In this document: one piece after another, positions 30,070 to 41,740 of the stretch
How the letters are laid out: each line of letters begins with the position of its first letter
How positions within the stretch are numbered: position 1 is the stretch's first letter
Assembly (NCBI GenBank): GCA_046263195.1
Contig: JBHELG010000108.1
Span: 2,293-66,292 of the forward strand
Reading direction: 5' to 3'
DNA: 64,000 nt
DNA from: Nitriliruptorales bacterium
GTDB lineage: Bacteria; Actinomycetota; Nitriliruptoria; Nitriliruptorales; JAHWKO01
Program-made: the position numbers and the translations under genes
The notes under the pieces: generated by a model
Databases searched by the model: none
Seen by the model: only the letters and a program-made list of their open reading frames with translations
What the model was told of the DNA's origin: nothing

Positions 30070-31158
30070 TTGGGAGACGCGGACATCCTCCAGGTCGTAA
30101 CCGACACCGACCCTCGCGGCGCGCAGGTCTTCGGCGTTGATCTCCACGAGGCGCTGGCGGGGCGCGGTCAGACCGTGAGGACCGTAGCTCTGGCACCAGG
30201 CCGCCACGGAGACCTACTCGACCTGCCGGTGCTGGCGCGTTCGTGGCCCAGCCGAGAAGTGCTGTCGGCGTTGCGTCGTGAGATGGCGAGGGCTCGAGTC
30301 GTCGTGGCTCACGGCTCGTCGACCCTGCCCGCTTGTGCCATCGCCGGGATGGGGCGGGGCGCCCCCTTCGTGTACCGCCAGATTTCCGACTCTCTTTTCT
30401 GGGCCGACAGCGCCGCCCGCCGACTGCGCGTCCGGCTCTTCCTGCGGCGAGCCTCCCGAGTCGTGGCGCTGTGGTCGGGCTCGGCGAGGGTGCTGAGCGA
30501 GCGCTTCGGCGTCGACTCCCGTCTCATCGACATCATCCCCAACGGCGTGCCGGCCAGTCGCTGCCCACGGATCGATCCCTCTGGAAGGCCCGCCGCCCGC
30601 AGCCGATTCGGGCTTCGTCCCTTCACTCCGACGCTGCTCTACATCGGTGCGCTCGTGCCCGAGAAGGGGGTCGACGCAGCCATACGTGCGCTTGCGGGCT
30701 GTGAAGAATGCCAGCTGCTCACCGTCGGTGGCGGCCCCGAATTGGAGAGGCTACGGGCCTTGGCGGATGCCGTCGCGCCCGGTCGGGTCGTCTTCGCTGG
30801 GCCACTGGACAATCCGGCCGACGCCTTCGCCGCGGCCGACATCGTCGTGCTGCCCAGCCGTGGTGGTGACAGCATGCCTGCGGTCCTCATCGAGGCGGGC
30901 CTGAGCGGGCTGCCTGCGGTATCGACGACCGTCGGCGCCATTCCCGAAATCGTGCAAGCGGGGGTGACCGGAGAGATCGTGGCACCGGACGACGAGTCGC
31001 AGCTGGTAGCGGCGATCCGGCGGGCGCTCGGCCGCGCGGAGCGCTACGGGCTGGCAGCGCGGCGGCACTGCCTCGAGCATTTCGAGATAGGCACCGTTGC
31101 GGGGCAGTGGGACCGTCTGCTCACGAGCCTTCTCCCGGCCGCTGTCCCCGGAGCTTGA
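30070..31158 (+). CDS. Family 4 (GT-B) glycosyltransferase
   Basis: In ORF 29977..31158. TTG 30070 lies 7 nt after GAGGAG and gives (M)GDADILQVVTDTDPRGAQ, a typical GT4 N-terminus; ATG 29977 is the alternative. C-terminal EX7E-like region SRGGDSMPAVLIEAGLSGLPAVST. Confidence 0.7.
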   Translation: MGDADILQVVTDTDPRGAQVFGVDLHEALAGRGQTVRTVALAPGRHGDLLDLPVLARSWPSREVLSALRREMARARVVVAHGSSTLPACAIAGMGRGAPFVYRQISDSLFWADSAARRLRVRLFLRRASRVVALWSGSARVLSERFGVDSRLIDIIPNGVPASRCPRIDPSGRPAARSRFGLRPFTPTLLYIGALVPEKGVDAAIRALAGCEECQLLTVGGGPELERLRALADAVAPGRVVFAGPLDNPADAFAAADIVVLPSRGGDSMPAVLIEAGLSGLPAVSTTVGAIPEIVQAGVTGEIVAPDDESQLVAAIRRALGRAERYGLAARRHCLEHFEIGTVAGQWDRLLTSLLPAAVPGA

Positions 31159-31270
31159 CGAGCCGCTCGCCCGTGCTTCACCCCGCGCATACGGCCGGTG
31201 CAGGCGGAGTGGACGCCGTCGAAGGGATCTGGCACTCTGCGCGCTGAACGCACGCGTTCAGGGAGCAGAT

Positions 31271-31436
31271 ATGACCTGCGATCGCGTCCGGCAGCAGACG
31301 TTGGAGAGCGGCGGCAACGTCCGTCGCACCTCAGCGTTGGGTTCCCGACGCATAGCTCCCACCACCAGCACCACCATCATCATCGCCTGTCTCCCGTAGC
31401 CCGACTGACGCACCGGGCTGCGGGAGCGGCCCGGTG
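31271..31436 (+). promoter_or_regulatory. cimA leader: Thr/Ile-rich leader peptide ORF (31271..31399) and two mutually exclusive hairpins
   Basis: ATG 31271 lies 5 nt after GGGAG. The 42-codon ORF ends ...RRIAPTTSTTIIIACLP-TAG. Hairpin A is 31391-31403/31414-31426 (13 bp, and contains the leader stop codon). Hairpin B is 31411-31418/31429-31436 (8 bp). The two share bases 31414-31418. Confidence 0.5.
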
Positions 31437-31486
31437 AAGATCCGGCGCCTCGCCCGCACCCGGTGTCAAACCGAGAGGACGACCCG

Positions 31487-33100
31487 GTGAGCGAGCAGGA
31501 CCAACTCGGCCGCATGGGGCCGCGATTTGCCCTCTACGACACCACCCTGCGTGACGGCACCCAGCGCAGAGGTGTCAACCTCACGGTGGACGACAAGCTG
31601 AAGGTCGCTCGGCAGATTGACGAGCTGGGCGTTCACTTCATCGAGGGTGGTTGGCCGGGTGCGAACCCGAAGGACACCGAGTTCTTCCGCCGCGCAGCCG
31701 AGGGCGACCTGGTCCTGAGGCACGCGACGCTGACAGCCTTCGGTGCCACCCGGAACGTGCGCAAGAGGGCCGAGGACGACCCCTTGCTCCGGGCGCTGCT
31801 CGACGCTGGCACGCCGGTCGTGTGTATCGTGGGGAAGTCCTGGGGCTATCACGTCGAGGGAGCTCTTGGGGTTTCTCTCGAGCAGAACCTGGCGATGGTC
31901 GCCGAGACCGTCGCCTTCCTGACATCGGCCGGGCGCCGCGTCTTCTTCGACGCCGAGCACTTCTTCGACGGCTATGCGCGCGACCGCGCCTACACGCGGG
32001 ACGTCGCCCTGGTGGCGGCCGAGGCCGGCGCCGAGTGCGTCGTCCTCTGTGACACGAACGGTGGCGCGATGCCCTGGGCCGTGCAGCCGGCGGTGGCGGA
32101 CATGGTCACCATGCTTCCCTGTGAAGTTGGAACGCACTTCCACGACGACGGTGGCTGTGCCGTCGCAAACTCGCTCATCAGTGTCGAGGCAGGAGCGGTT
32201 CACGTGCAGGGGACGGCGAACGGGCTGGGTGAACGCTGCGGCAACGCCAACCTGTTCACCGTCCTCGCTGACCTCCAACTCAAGCGTGGCCTCGAGCTGG
32301 TGCCGCCCGAGCGGCTCGTCCGCATGACGACCGTGGCCCACGCGGTGGCCGAGCTCTGCAACCAGGCCCCCCCGATGGGACAGCCCTACGTCGGGTCAGG
32401 CGCCTTCGCGCACAAAGCCGGCCTGCACGTCTCGGCGCTCGCGAAAGCCGCCGACATGTACCAGCACGTTGACCCGTCTCTCGTCGGCAACCACCAGCAC
32501 CTCGTCGTCAGCGAACTGGCCGGACGGGCCACCATCGCGCTCAAGGCCCGGGCGCTCGGCCTCGAGCTGGACGACGCAACCTCCACCCGCGTGCTGGAGG
32601 AGGTCAAGCGACGGGAACATCTCGGCTGGAGCTACGACGCGGCAGACGCATCCTTCGCGCTCCTATTGCTGCGCCTGACCGGACGGCTGGGCGAGGAGCC
32701 GTTCCGTCTGCAGCATTTCCGGGTGACGGTCGGAGGGGGCGGGGCCGGCTCCAACTCGGAGGCGGTCGTGGCGGTCGAGATCGAAGGTCAGCGCAGGCTC
32801 GGCGCCGGAGAAGGCAATGGTCCTGTTGACGCACTCGACCACGCCTTCCGCAACGCCGCCAACGGGACCTGGCCCGATCTCGACCGCGTCCAGCTCGCCG
32901 ACTACAAGGTCCGCATCCTCGAAGCATCCCACGGCACCGACGCCGTCACCCGGGTGCTCGTGACCACCACGGATGGGAAGGAAACCTGGGACACGGTAGG
33001 CGTCCACCCGAACATCGTGGAAGCTTCCTGGATGGCGCTTGCTGACGCGTACGCTTGGGCGCTCGCACGCGAATCGTGGCCGGGACGAGAGCTCCAGTAG
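31487..33100 (+). CDS. cimA: (R)-citramalate synthase (LeuA-family, TIGR00977-like)
   Basis: In ORF 31463..33100. GTG 31487 lies 7 nt after GAGAGGA; alternatives are GTG 31463 and ATG 31514. Motifs YDTTLRDGTQRRGVNLTVDDKLKVARQIDELGVHFIEGGWPGANPKD and HFHDDGGCAVANS, plus a C-terminal LeuA-type regulatory domain. Confidence 0.85.
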   Translation: MSEQDQLGRMGPRFALYDTTLRDGTQRRGVNLTVDDKLKVARQIDELGVHFIEGGWPGANPKDTEFFRRAAEGDLVLRHATLTAFGATRNVRKRAEDDPLLRALLDAGTPVVCIVGKSWGYHVEGALGVSLEQNLAMVAETVAFLTSAGRRVFFDAEHFFDGYARDRAYTRDVALVAAEAGAECVVLCDTNGGAMPWAVQPAVADMVTMLPCEVGTHFHDDGGCAVANSLISVEAGAVHVQGTANGLGERCGNANLFTVLADLQLKRGLELVPPERLVRMTTVAHAVAELCNQAPPMGQPYVGSGAFAHKAGLHVSALAKAADMYQHVDPSLVGNHQHLVVSELAGRATIALKARALGLELDDATSTRVLEEVKRREHLGWSYDAADASFALLLLRLTGRLGEEPFRLQHFRVTVGGGGAGSNSEAVVAVEIEGQRRLGAGEGNGPVDALDHAFRNAANGTWPDLDRVQLADYKVRILEASHGTDAVTRVLVTTTDGKETWDTVGVHPNIVEASWMALADAYAWALARESWPGRELQ

Positions 33101-41017: not shown

Positions 41018-41740
41018 TTAGGGTCCCTTCCTGTTCGGCTCAGCAGCCGGTGTTGAGCCGCCCGGCAGACGCTGCTCAGCCCGTGGTTGCGCTATCGCGA
41101 ACGACTTCTCCCCGTCAGGGTGAATCTCCACTTTCCAGCCCTGTTCTCGCAATCTTCGGATGATTGCTGCCTCACCATCCCGATGGGCGTCGTCCAGCAG
41201 GACCGTCGCGGTGGTCACCCGCTCGCCGAGGACCTCCCAGAGCCCCCACCTCCCTCCGACGATGCCGCCAGGCGGGCCGTCACAGATCACGAGATCAAAC
41301 TGATCCGGCAACGCGGGCGGGACCGCGTACCACTCGATGTCCCCGTACCGCACCAGTGGCACGTTGAGGACTGCAGGCCCCATCGCCCTGAAGAACTCCG
41401 ACCTGTGCCGGATGGCGTCCGCCCAGTCAGCTTCGTGCTCCAGGCTCCACACCGGCGCTGTGACGCCAGGAGTCAGGGCCAAAGCCAGCGTGGTAAGGCC
41501 TGATCCACACTCCAGGATCGGCCCGGGGGAGGCGGCCACGTACTCGAGCGCCATCAGCAGGTATCGGTCTCCTGCCCTGAAGCTCGCATTCCCCCAGCCG
41601 ATGGCCAGCCGCTGGACGGCTACCGGCGAGGGCCCTTGCCGGCGCAACTCGTGAGCACCGAGACGAAAGAGAGCTGAACGCCGAGCGGACGCGAGCGGGC
41701 GACGCACACGTGCGGGCACATAGTCTCGGATCCTGGTCAC
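41018..41740 (-). CDS. Class I SAM-dependent methyltransferase
   Basis: ORF 41018..41740(-). SAM motif I ILECGSGLTTLALAL; post-I acidic WSLEHE; FDLVICDGPPG. Confidence 0.65.
   Translation of the reverse strand: MTRIRDYVPARVRRPLASARRSALFRLGAHELRRQGPSPVAVQRLAIGWGNASFRAGDRYLLMALEYVAASPGPILECGSGLTTLALALTPGVTAPVWSLEHEADWADAIRHRSEFFRAMGPAVLNVPLVRYGDIEWYAVPPALPDQFDLVICDGPPGGIVGGRWGLWEVLGERVTTATVLLDDAHRDGEAAIIRRLREQGWKVEIHPDGEKSFAIAQPRAEQRLPGGSTPAAEPNRKGP

What the first reader, a model, noticed from the sequence alone, without database searches (positions are those of the whole stretch)
31244..31489. Thr/Ile-rich leader peptide with mutually exclusive hairpins upstream of citramalate synthase
ATG 31271, 5 nt after GGGAG, opens a 42-codon ORF ending ...RRIAPTTSTTIIIACLP-TAG at 31397-31399. 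Eleven consecutive codons hold four Thr and four Ile, including a rare ATA. cimA starts the threonine-independent route to isoleucine, so an Ile/Thr-sensing leader fits its function.
Two hairpins compete for bases 31414-31418.
- Hairpin A: CTCCCGTAGCCCG (31391-31403) with CGGGCTGCGGGAG (31414-31426), 13 bp, containing the leader stop codon.
- Hairpin B: CACCGGGC (31411-31418) with GCCCGGTG (31429-31436).
A ribosome reaching the stop codon would melt A and allow B. A ribosome stalled on the Ile/Thr codons would leave A intact and block B. This is classic attenuator logic, although B lacks a U-tract.
The sequence CCCGGTG recurs at 31459-31465 and 31483-31489, the latter including the proposed cimA GTG. 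A 7-bp hairpin or palindrome (31244-31261) abuts the leader SD.
Basis: partly seen in the sequence, partly recalled or inferred. Interest (0 to 1): 0.6.

Follow-up and report, generated by a model that had tools for sequence, protein, structure and literature searches.

The report
Isoleucine-sensing leader peptide switch before cimA
A tiny upstream gene ending in a run of isoleucine codons, followed by competing RNA hairpins, sits in front of the first gene of the citramalate route to isoleucine; it is conserved across a whole class of actinobacteria and is almost certainly a ribosome-operated isoleucine sensor of a known type, here built without the usual U-rich stop signal.

Summary
A 42-codon ORF (31271-31399) with a GGGAG ribosome site ends ...TTSTTIIIACLP-TAG, 88 nt before a gene that scores as citramalate synthase. 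Hairpins A and B exist as described.

- Conservation: 80 of 103 distinct actinobacterial cimA upstream regions have "II" in the last 8 codons of a short ORF, against 5 of 103 on the reverse strand. In the window's order the leader ends I(2-4)-x-x-L-P-TAG.
- Codons: Ile is conserved. The Thr run is not.
- Structure: B is only the first half of the real alternative to A. The 22-nt block CCGGGCUGCGGGAGCGGCCCGG pairs with a downstream arm to form a ~57-nt hairpin C (31410-31466).
- Geometry: the hairpin base lies 8 nt after the first base of the last Ile codon in 46 of 86 loci, while the stop codon position varies. A stalled ribosome therefore spares A, and a passing ribosome melts it.
- Logic: this matches the published M. 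tuberculosis ilvB1 and C. glutamicum ilvBNC attenuators.
- Output: unproven. There is no U-tract, but this genome almost lacks U-tract terminators. Sister clades carry a canonical terminator at this position.

I found no paper describing a cimA leader. This scan has noted cimA Ile leaders before in other genomes (Acidimicrobiia, Planctomycetota, archaea).

The parts
31210..31238 (+). Promoter-like pair: -35 TGGACG (31210-31215), 17-nt spacer, extended -10 TGG-CACTCT (31230-31238). The predicted transcript start is about 31244-31247.
   Evidence: The pattern TGGAC-N17-19-TGGCAC/G-n-CT recurs upstream of the leader in 7 of 8 members of the window's family. The assignment is inferred from a consensus pattern and no transcript data were available.
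31244..31261 (+). 7-bp palindrome CTGAACG-CACG-CGTTCAG. It would be a hairpin at the 5' end of the predicted transcript, abutting the leader's ribosome site.
   Evidence: Sequence. Only the closest relative (L082) has a comparable 5-bp hairpin, so the feature is not conserved and its function is not established.
31261..31265 (+). Shine-Dalgarno sequence GGGAG of the leader ORF.
   Evidence: In 7 of 8 family members a GGAG-type site precedes the leader start. The eighth looks leaderless.
31271..31399 (+). Leader peptide ORF of 42 codons, ending TTSTTIIIACLP-TAG.
   Evidence: Relatives in the order end I(2-4)-x-x-L-P-TAG. 80 of 103 cimA upstream regions have an Ile pair at an ORF end, against 5 of 103 controls.
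31376..31384 (+). Regulatory run of three ATC isoleucine codons. A further ATA Ile codon lies at 31352-31354.
   Evidence: Leader positions -7, -6 and -5 are Ile in 30, 27 and 33 of 33 relatives. The stem of A starts 9 nt after the first base of the last Ile codon here, and 8 nt after it in 46 of 86 loci.
31391..31426 (+). Hairpin A, the proposed antiterminator. The 5' arm 31391-31403 contains the Leu-Pro codons and the TAG stop. The 3' arm is 31414-31426.
   Evidence: Folds. RNAalifold finds its core on its own. 93.9% of cells are paired against 32-50% when slid, and 3 pairs show changes on both sides.
31411..31436 (+). Hairpin B: 11 bp here (9 bp in the consensus) around a GGGA tetraloop. 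It reuses the whole 3' arm of A and is probably the first intermediate on the way to C.
   Evidence: -24.9 kcal/mol. 93.2% of cells are paired against 26-46% when slid, and 4 pairs show changes on both sides.
31410..31466 (+). Hairpin C, the proposed terminator-like OFF structure. It is about 25 bp. The 5' arm is 31410-31434 (both arms of B), the loop is 31435-31441, and the 3' arm is 31442-31466, which includes the CCCGGTG at 31459-31465.
   Evidence: -43 kcal/mol. With the 5' arm of A masked, 25 of 28 relatives fold the equivalent hairpin, with median 57 nt and -38.8 kcal/mol. Complementarity of segment 2 to the spacer beats dinucleotide shuffles in 28 of 33 sequences, mean z -1.1. No U-tract follows: the tail is 44% C and 10% U.
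31473..31489 (+). cimA ribosome site GAGAGGA (31473-31479) and GTG start codon (31487-31489).
   Evidence: Starts and SD sites of 33 orthologues compared. The ribosome-site openness changes by only 0.05 between the two switch states.
31487..33100 (+). cimA, (R)-citramalate synthase, the regulated gene.
   Evidence: TIGR00977 equivalog, 590.3 bits against a cut-off of 450.

Best explanation
This is a ribosome-mediated isoleucine attenuator of the actinobacterial two-hairpin type, controlling cimA.

Proposed mechanism:
1. The leader mRNA probably starts near 31245 and is translated from ATG 31271.
2. When charged Ile-tRNA is scarce, the ribosome waits at ATC ATC ATC (31376-31384). Its leading edge reaches only the foot of hairpin A, so A stays closed and holds the segment CCGGGCUGCGGGAG. 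Hairpins B and C cannot form, RNA polymerase runs on, and cimA is expressed.
3. When Ile is plentiful, the ribosome moves on to the TAG, which lies inside the 5' arm of A, and unwinds A.
4. The freed segment snaps into B and then, with the downstream arm, into the long hairpin C (31410-31466). C is the OFF signal. It most likely causes premature transcription termination before cimA.
5. C has no U-tract, and this genome hardly uses U-tract terminators. The termination step is therefore probably Rho-dependent, or of the long-stem, U-less kind typical of high-G+C actinobacteria.

Shown here: the ORF, its Ile-specific conservation, the three structures and their mutual exclusion, the conserved spacing, and the single copy per genome.
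Inferred: which state is ON, and that the output is transcription termination.

My sub-probabilities:
- A real Ile-responsive leader attenuator: about 0.9.
- A is the ON state: about 0.7.
- The output is termination rather than translation: about 0.6.
For: - Gene identity.
- Ile leader conserved.
- A and B conserved with compensatory changes. In L086 a G-to-A change in segment 2 is matched both in A (U-A) and in B (A-U).
- Hairpin C is the usual fold once the 5' arm of A is masked. Its complementarity beats shuffles.
- Spacing from the last Ile codon to the hairpin base is 8 nt in 46 of 86 loci and 6-9 nt in 69 of 86. The distance to the stop codon varies among 6, 15, 18 and 21 nt. From established knowledge of the ribosomal mRNA entry channel (recalled, not tested here), this puts the hairpin at the channel entrance when the last Ile codon is in the A site.
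- Sister clades (Intrasporangiaceae, Streptosporangiales, Thermobifida, Nocardioides and others) carry the same Ile leader and first hairpin, followed by a canonical GACCUCCC...GGGGGGUC-UUUU terminator. The ancestral output is therefore transcriptional.
- Published models with the same logic: M. tuberculosis ilvB1NC (PMC13236596) and C. glutamicum ilvBNC (PMC11857589; PMC10272879).
- Only 22 of 791 gene 3' flanks in this genome hold TTTT. The ilvB leader of the same genome also ends in a hairpin without a U-tract. The rho gene is present.
- Actinobacterial 3'-end stem-loops are long, often lack U-rich tails, and have the highest Rho-dependency scores: PMC13613805.
- The spacer after the switch is C-rich, with C/G = 1.6.
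- The covariance model hits once per genome, in 82 of 121 genomes of the class.
Against: - There are no transcript data.
- No U-tract follows B or C. Mycobacterial RNA polymerase is reported to need one for intrinsic termination (recalled from Czyz et al. 2014, not checked here).
- In thermodynamic folds the cimA ribosome site is slightly more open when A is melted (0.45 against 0.41). If the output were translational, that is the wrong sign for this polarity.
- The ribosome footprint argument rests on E. coli and structural data, not on this organism.
- In G+C-rich RNA many alternative pairings score well, so C could be over-read.
- The relatives are not independent samples.
Confidence: 0.6

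Rival explanations
1. Translational attenuation with the opposite polarity. The stalled ribosome prevents A, so segment 2 pairs with the C/U-rich downstream arm (hairpin C). That captures an anti-Shine-Dalgarno sequence and frees the cimA ribosome site, turning expression ON. When Ile is plentiful the ribosome leaves and A re-forms. The C/U-rich arm then pairs with the cimA SD, turning expression OFF.
For: - The 3' arm of C is CUCCC-like and could pair with the GGAGG-type SD.
- The ribosome site is a little more open when A is masked: 0.45 against 0.41, in a consistent direction.
- Some relatives (L088, L092, L006) show a clear opening in the folds.
- Translational attenuation by uORFs is known in mycobacteria, as cited in PMC13236596.
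Against: - The Ile codons end 5 nt before A in nearly all loci, so a stalled ribosome would cover at most the first few pairs of a 13-15 bp stem.
- Complementarity between the spacer and the SD is no better than in shuffled spacers (mean z -0.05).
- The predicted change in SD openness is only 0.05.
- Sister clades with the same leader geometry use a true terminator.
- A is part of the ground state of the free leader. An equilibrium switch would therefore sit in one state once the ribosome has left.
Confidence: 0.2
2. The long duplex C is a processing or stability signal rather than a terminator. For example, it could be an RNase III site that severs the leader from cimA mRNA and exposes it to decay when Ile is plentiful.
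For: C is a conserved duplex of about 25 bp with few mismatches and no U-tract. That is the size RNase III accepts (recalled knowledge, not tested here).
Against: Nothing in the sequence points specifically to cleavage. Related leaders elsewhere end in ordinary terminators. No transcript ends were available.
Confidence: 0.07
3. The conserved 22-nt block is a binding site for a protein or small ligand, and the short ORF is incidental.
For: - The block is conserved in sequence, not only in pairing.
- A 10-mer, CGGGCUGCGG, is shared with the ilvB leader of the same genome.
Against: - No Rfam family matches.
- The sequence conservation is explained by one segment having to pair with three partners while its upstream partner, the 5' arm of A, also encodes Leu-Pro-stop.
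- The Ile run, its reading frame and its spacing are conserved across clades whose hairpin sequences differ completely.
Confidence: 0.04

Closest known systems
Mycobacterium tuberculosis ilvB1NC leader attenuator (PMC13236596)
   Same: - A short translated uORF with end-product codons near its end.
- Two mutually exclusive structures.
- A ribosome stalled at the regulatory codons lets the antiterminator form, and a ribosome at the stop codon masks it so the terminator forms.
- A high-G+C actinobacterium.
   Different: - The target there is ilvB1 and the codons are mixed Leu/Val/Ile. Here the target is cimA and the codons are Ile only.
- The M. tuberculosis element ends in a Rho-independent terminator with a U-tract. 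Here the alternative is a long hairpin with no U-tract.
- That system has experimental support. This one has none.
Corynebacterium glutamicum ilvBNC attenuator / ilvB-II motif (PMC11857589, PMC10272879)
   Same: - A leader peptide ending ...RRLP (recalled from Morbach et al. 2000) resembles the ...xxLP end here.
- The antiterminator hairpin begins a few nucleotides after the control codons.
- The terminator follows directly.
- The paused ribosome favours the antiterminator.
   Different: - In C. glutamicum the antiterminator and terminator overlap by only 3 nt, and a U-tract follows. Here A and C share the whole 13-16 nt arm, and there is no U-tract.
- The gene and the amino-acid specificity differ.
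cimA Ile leaders of other Actinomycetota
   Same: - The same regulated gene.
- The same Ile run at the end of a short ORF.
- The same 8-nt spacing to the first hairpin.
   Different: Those have hairpin P1 directly abutting a canonical terminator (GACCUCCC...GGGGGGUC-UUUU) with no obvious overlap. The Nitriliruptoria version has fully overlapping A and C and no U-tract.
Enterobacterial four-segment attenuators (trpL, ilvL, ivbL, leuL)
   Same: A leader peptide rich in the end-product amino acid, with the ribosome's position choosing between RNA folds.
   Different: - There the regulatory codons lie inside segment 1, and the stalled ribosome blocks the 1:2 pairing.
- Without translation those attenuators terminate. 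Here the untranslated ground state contains A, which is the proposed ON state.
E. coli tna operon (TnaC, Rho-dependent attenuation)
   Same: - A possible Rho-dependent output controlled by a ribosome in a leader ORF.
- Pro as the last codon before the stop.
   Different: - TnaC is an arrest peptide that senses free Trp at the stop codon. Here the signal is a hungry-codon run.
- The Pro-stop here is explained by the RNA stem. It is absent in L098 and in other clades.

Membership tests
Actinobacterial two-hairpin leader-peptide attenuator (M. tuberculosis ilvB1 / C. glutamicum ilvBNC type) | A short uORF with its own start signal, enriched near its end in codons for the pathway's end product. 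| tested here: met
   SD plus ATG at 31261-31273. Ile occupies positions -7 to -5 in 27-33 of 33 relatives, and makes up 29% of the last 12 codons against 3.6% genome-wide.
Actinobacterial two-hairpin leader-peptide attenuator (M. tuberculosis ilvB1 / C. glutamicum ilvBNC type) | The uORF lies in the 5' leader of a biosynthetic gene for that amino acid. | tested here: met
   cimA, TIGR00977 at 590 bits, starts 88 nt after the leader stop codon. The element is present once per genome, at cimA.
Actinobacterial two-hairpin leader-peptide attenuator (M. tuberculosis ilvB1 / C. glutamicum ilvBNC type) | Two mutually exclusive RNA structures. The first begins just downstream of the regulatory codons, so a stalled ribosome spares it and a terminating ribosome masks it. 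| tested here: met
   A competes with B and C. The 8-nt spacing is conserved. The stop codon lies inside the 5' arm of A.
Actinobacterial two-hairpin leader-peptide attenuator (M. tuberculosis ilvB1 / C. glutamicum ilvBNC type) | The second structure is an intrinsic terminator, a hairpin followed by a U-tract. | tested here: not met
   No U-run follows B or C in any of 33 relatives. The tail is 10% U. It is met in sister clades.
Actinobacterial two-hairpin leader-peptide attenuator (M. tuberculosis ilvB1 / C. glutamicum ilvBNC type) | Premature termination and induction on amino-acid limitation. | not testable with these tools
No transcript data were available.
Classical four-segment enterobacterial attenuator | The regulatory codons lie inside segment 1, with 1:2, 2:3 and 3:4 pairings and a U-tract terminator. 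| tested here: not met
   The codons lie 5 nt upstream of the first stem. Only 1:2 and a 2+3 hairpin against a downstream arm are found. There is no U-tract.
Translational attenuation (uORF-controlled SD sequestration) | The main gene's SD is paired in one switch state and free in the other. | tested here: inconclusive
   Ribosome-site openness is 0.41 against 0.45 in the two states. Spacer-to-SD complementarity is not above shuffles.
Rho-dependent leader attenuation (tna-like) | A C-rich, G-poor unstructured loading site whose exposure depends on the leader ribosome, and dependence on Rho. | tested here: inconclusive
   The rho gene is present. C/G is 1.6 in the spacer and 1.75 in the last 36 nt of the leader ORF. 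Rho dependence itself cannot be tested here.
Known Rfam RNA families (T-box, riboswitches, catalogued leaders) | A match to a curated covariance model. | tested here: not met
   There was no meaningful hit in the window at E up to 10. There was no hit at gathering score in five relatives' loci.

The most novel reading that the evidence does not exclude
In the class Nitriliruptoria, whose genomes almost lack U-tract terminators, the ancestral actinobacterial cimA attenuator has been rebuilt. The canonical terminator is replaced by a long U-less hairpin that fully overlaps the antiterminator. That would make it a ribosome-mediated amino-acid attenuator whose termination step depends on Rho, or on a hairpin alone. 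Across all clades the sensor obeys one rule: the first hairpin starts 5 nt after the last hungry codon, at the ribosome's mRNA entrance.
Probability: 0.35. Interest if true: 0.6.

Novelty: new member of a known kind. Interest (0 to 1): 0.4.

Why it matters
- Annotation: the Ile-only leader gives independent, sequence-based support that this leuA-like gene really is the isoleucine-pathway citramalate synthase in these uncultured soda-lake-type actinobacteria. The Thr run is a local accident.
- A missing class of element: leader-peptide control of cimA is absent from Rfam and from the papers I could search, yet it is widespread.
- A test case for termination: the same sensor is coupled to a textbook terminator in some actinobacterial clades and to a U-less long hairpin in another. 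This is a natural experiment on how high-G+C bacteria terminate transcription, which is still an unsettled question.
- A search rule: the conserved 8-nt spacing is a simple, testable design rule for finding and engineering such sensors.

Tried and rejected
- Thr sensing: rejected, because the Thr run is not conserved.
- B as a canonical intrinsic terminator: rejected, because no U-tract follows it in any relative.
- A second small ORF (GTG 31434 to TGA 31490): its SD-like GGGAG lies in the switch and its stop overlaps the cimA start, so I considered it as a translational relay. Rejected, because no relative has the start codon.
- SD sequestration as the main output: masking experiments gave only a 0.05 change, and spacer-to-SD complementarity equals that of shuffles. 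Kept only as a rival.
- An overlapping antiterminator in the sister-clade P1+T leaders: none was found by masked folding. A repeat of GACCUCC in the P1 loop is not conserved.
- Rfam: nothing.
- Further copies of the switch in the genome: only weak chance hits, one inside an acetyl-CoA-synthetase-like gene.
- Literature on cimA leaders: three searches found no description.
Full report
**Observation.** The sequence is as described.
- GGGAG (31261-31265) is followed after 5 nt by ATG 31271.
- The ORF reads MTCDRVRQQTLESGGNVRRTSALGSRRIAPTTSTTIIIACLP and stops at TAG 31397-31399.
- Hairpin A (31391-31403 with 31414-31426) and hairpin B (31411-31418 with 31429-31436) are present. B extends to 11 bp around a GGGA loop, so A and B compete for all of 31414-31426.
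- The gene that follows (GTG 31487, SD GAGAGGA 31473-31479) scores 590 bits on TIGR00977 citramalate synthase, against a cut-off of 450.
- The upstream gene is a GT4 glycosyltransferase ending at 31158.
- No Rfam family matches the region.

**Is the leader real?** I fetched 80 cimA loci from across Actinomycetota and 30 from the window's own family and order.
- In 80 of 103 distinct upstream regions a short ORF has two adjacent Ile codons within its last 8 codons. The reverse strand gives 5 of 103.
- The closest named relative is a Nitriliruptoraceae genome, so the window belongs to a sister family in the same order. In that order the leader ends I(2-4)-x-x-L-P-TAG in about 30 of 33 distinct sequences.
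- Position -5 is Ile in 33 of 33, -7 in 30, and -6 in 27.
- Ile is 29% of the last 12 codons, against 3.6% in this genome's genes. Thr is 4.3% against 5.4%.
- The sensor is therefore Ile-specific, and the TTSTT run is a local feature of this genome.
- Seven of eight family members have a GGAG-type site before the leader start and a shared promoter-like pattern, TGGAC-N17-19-TGGCACnCT. In the window this pattern places the transcript start near 31244-31247.
It is not conserved.

**Structures.** The block cgCUCCCG-UAG-CCGG-(loop)-CCGGGCUGC-GGGA-GCGGCCCGG is nearly invariant across the order, although the cimA proteins are only 65-89% identical.
- On the alignment, A is paired in 93.9% of cells and B in 93.2%, against 26-50% when partners are slid.
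- A has 3 pairs and B has 4 pairs with changes on both sides. RNAalifold recovers the core of A unaided.
- Divergent members keep both structures with different letters. In L098, A is CUCCGCG/CGCGGAG and B is CCGGCCGC/GCGGCCGG. L013 has a compensating deletion. L086 has a G-to-A change that fits both A and B.
- The strong sequence conservation has a simple cause. One segment must pair with several partners, and its upstream partner, the 5' arm of A, also encodes Leu-Pro-stop.

**Hairpin C.** B is not the full alternative to A.
- If the 5' arm of A is masked, 25 of 28 relatives fold the whole 22-nt block (both arms of B) against a downstream arm of the form CCGG..GCC..CUCCCG..CCCGG. This long hairpin C has a median length of 57 nt and a median energy of -38.8 kcal/mol.
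- In the window, C spans 31410-31466 (-43 kcal/mol).
- Complementarity between segment 2 and the variable spacer beats dinucleotide shuffles in 28 of 33 sequences, with mean z -1.1.
- The CCCGGTG copy over the cimA start is not conserved.

**Which state is ON?** Across 86 loci from clades whose hairpin sequences are unrelated, the first hairpin starts 8 nt after the first base of the last Ile codon in 46 loci, and 6-9 nt after it in 69. The distance to the stop codon varies among 6, 15, 18 and 21 nt.
- From established knowledge of the ribosomal mRNA channel (recalled, not tested here), a duplex starting 5 nt after the A-site codon sits at the channel entrance. That knowledge covers the helicase site near +11 and the 5-9 nt spacers of frameshift stimulators.
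- A ribosome waiting for Ile-tRNA therefore leaves A closed. One step further and it begins to unwind A. At the TAG, which lies inside the 5' arm of A, A is gone.
- This is the logic published for M. tuberculosis ilvB1NC (PMC13236596) and C. glutamicum ilvBNC (PMC11857589). In both, the stalled ribosome allows the antiterminator and the terminating ribosome masks it.

**What is the output?** In sister clades the same leader and first hairpin are followed directly by a canonical terminator, GACCUCCC...GGGGGGUC-UUUU. These clades include Intrasporangiaceae, Streptosporangiales, Thermobifida, Nocardioides and a low-G+C lineage. The ancestral output is therefore transcription termination.
- In the window's class no U-tract follows B or C. 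The tail is 44% C and 10% U.
- That absence is not informative here. Only 22 of 791 gene 3' flanks in this genome contain TTTT, against 14 of 791 in coding ends. Downstream regions fold no better than shuffles.
- The ilvB leader of the same genome (peptide ...VAVIVVVM) also ends in a GGACCUCCC/GGGAGGUCC hairpin without a U-tract.
- The rho gene is present.
- The spacer is C-rich, with C/G = 1.6.
- A survey reports that actinobacterial 3'-end stem-loops have long stems, often lack U-rich tails, and show the highest Rho dependency (PMC13613805). Rho-dependent conditional termination linked to translated uORFs is documented in M. tuberculosis (10.1101/2022.06.01.494293).
- I therefore favour premature termination at or after C, assisted by Rho or by the hairpin alone.

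**The translational alternative is weaker.** The predicted openness of the cimA ribosome site differs by only 0.05 between the two states, and in the wrong direction for this polarity. Spacer-to-SD complementarity does not exceed shuffles. Because A belongs to the ground state of the free leader, C is transient, which suits a co-transcriptional decision.

**Distribution and novelty.** A covariance model of the switch hits once in the window's genome, at cimA (66.8 bits). It also hits once per genome in 82 of 121 sampled genomes of the class.
- I found no paper describing a leader peptide for cimA, and no Rfam family.
- The earlier comparative study of actinobacterial RNA elements covers ilvB, leuA, trp, cys and ileS, but not cimA (PMC1262725).
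- This scan has already noted Ile leaders before cimA in Acidimicrobiia, Planctomycetota, a small marine bacterium and archaea. The kind of element is therefore not new to the scan.
- What is particular here is the fully overlapping A/C design without a U-tract, and the cross-clade spacing rule.

**Limits.**
- All structures are predictions in G+C-rich RNA, where many pairings score well.
- The relatives are phylogenetically related, so the counts overstate independence.
- The polarity and the termination step are inferences.

Noticed in passing
G000:C84, about 41115-41262 (L111 positions 1344-1491), outside the window: The ilvB gene of the same genome has its own leader peptide, VLAHVTFDMLSPSGVAVIVVVM-TAG. 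Hairpins follow, including GGACCUCCC-GGAC-GGGAGGUCC, with no U-tract. It shares the 10-mer CGGGCUGCGG with the cimA leader.
   Followed up: partly
whole genome G000: Canonical U-tract terminators are almost absent. Only 22 of 791 crude gene 3' flanks hold TTTT, against 14 of 791 in coding ends. Downstream regions fold no better than shuffled sequence. The rho gene is present.
   Followed up: partly
window 31434-31490: An 18-codon ORF (GTG...TGA) whose SD-like GGGAG lies inside hairpins A and B, and whose stop overlaps the cimA start (GTGA). It is absent from all relatives, so it is probably chance.
   Followed up: yes
window 31210-31238, and the same position in L082-L088: A conserved promoter-like pattern, TGGAC-N17-19-TGGCACnCT, lies upstream of the leader in the window's family. 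In L083 the leader ATG lies about 6 nt after the -10-like hexamer, which suggests a leaderless leader mRNA.
   Followed up: partly
whole genome G000 (C138:3648-4595 is the best hit): No biosynthetic threonine dehydratase (IlvA with a regulatory domain) reaches the NCBIfam cut-offs. Only a short threonine-dehydratase-like gene was found. The citramalate route may therefore be the main source of 2-oxobutyrate.
   Followed up: partly
L009, L033, L074, L058, L044 and other sister-clade loci: In other actinobacterial clades the first hairpin abuts the U-tract terminator with no spacer and no overlapping pairs. How the closed hairpin would prevent termination there is unexplained. Steric exclusion from the RNA exit channel is my guess.
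   Followed up: partly
G000:C37:15555-15644 (L118): A weak model hit (E 0.04) where an ORF ends ...IRIGNLP-TAG followed by a GC-rich hairpin. It is probably chance and was not examined further.
   Followed up: no
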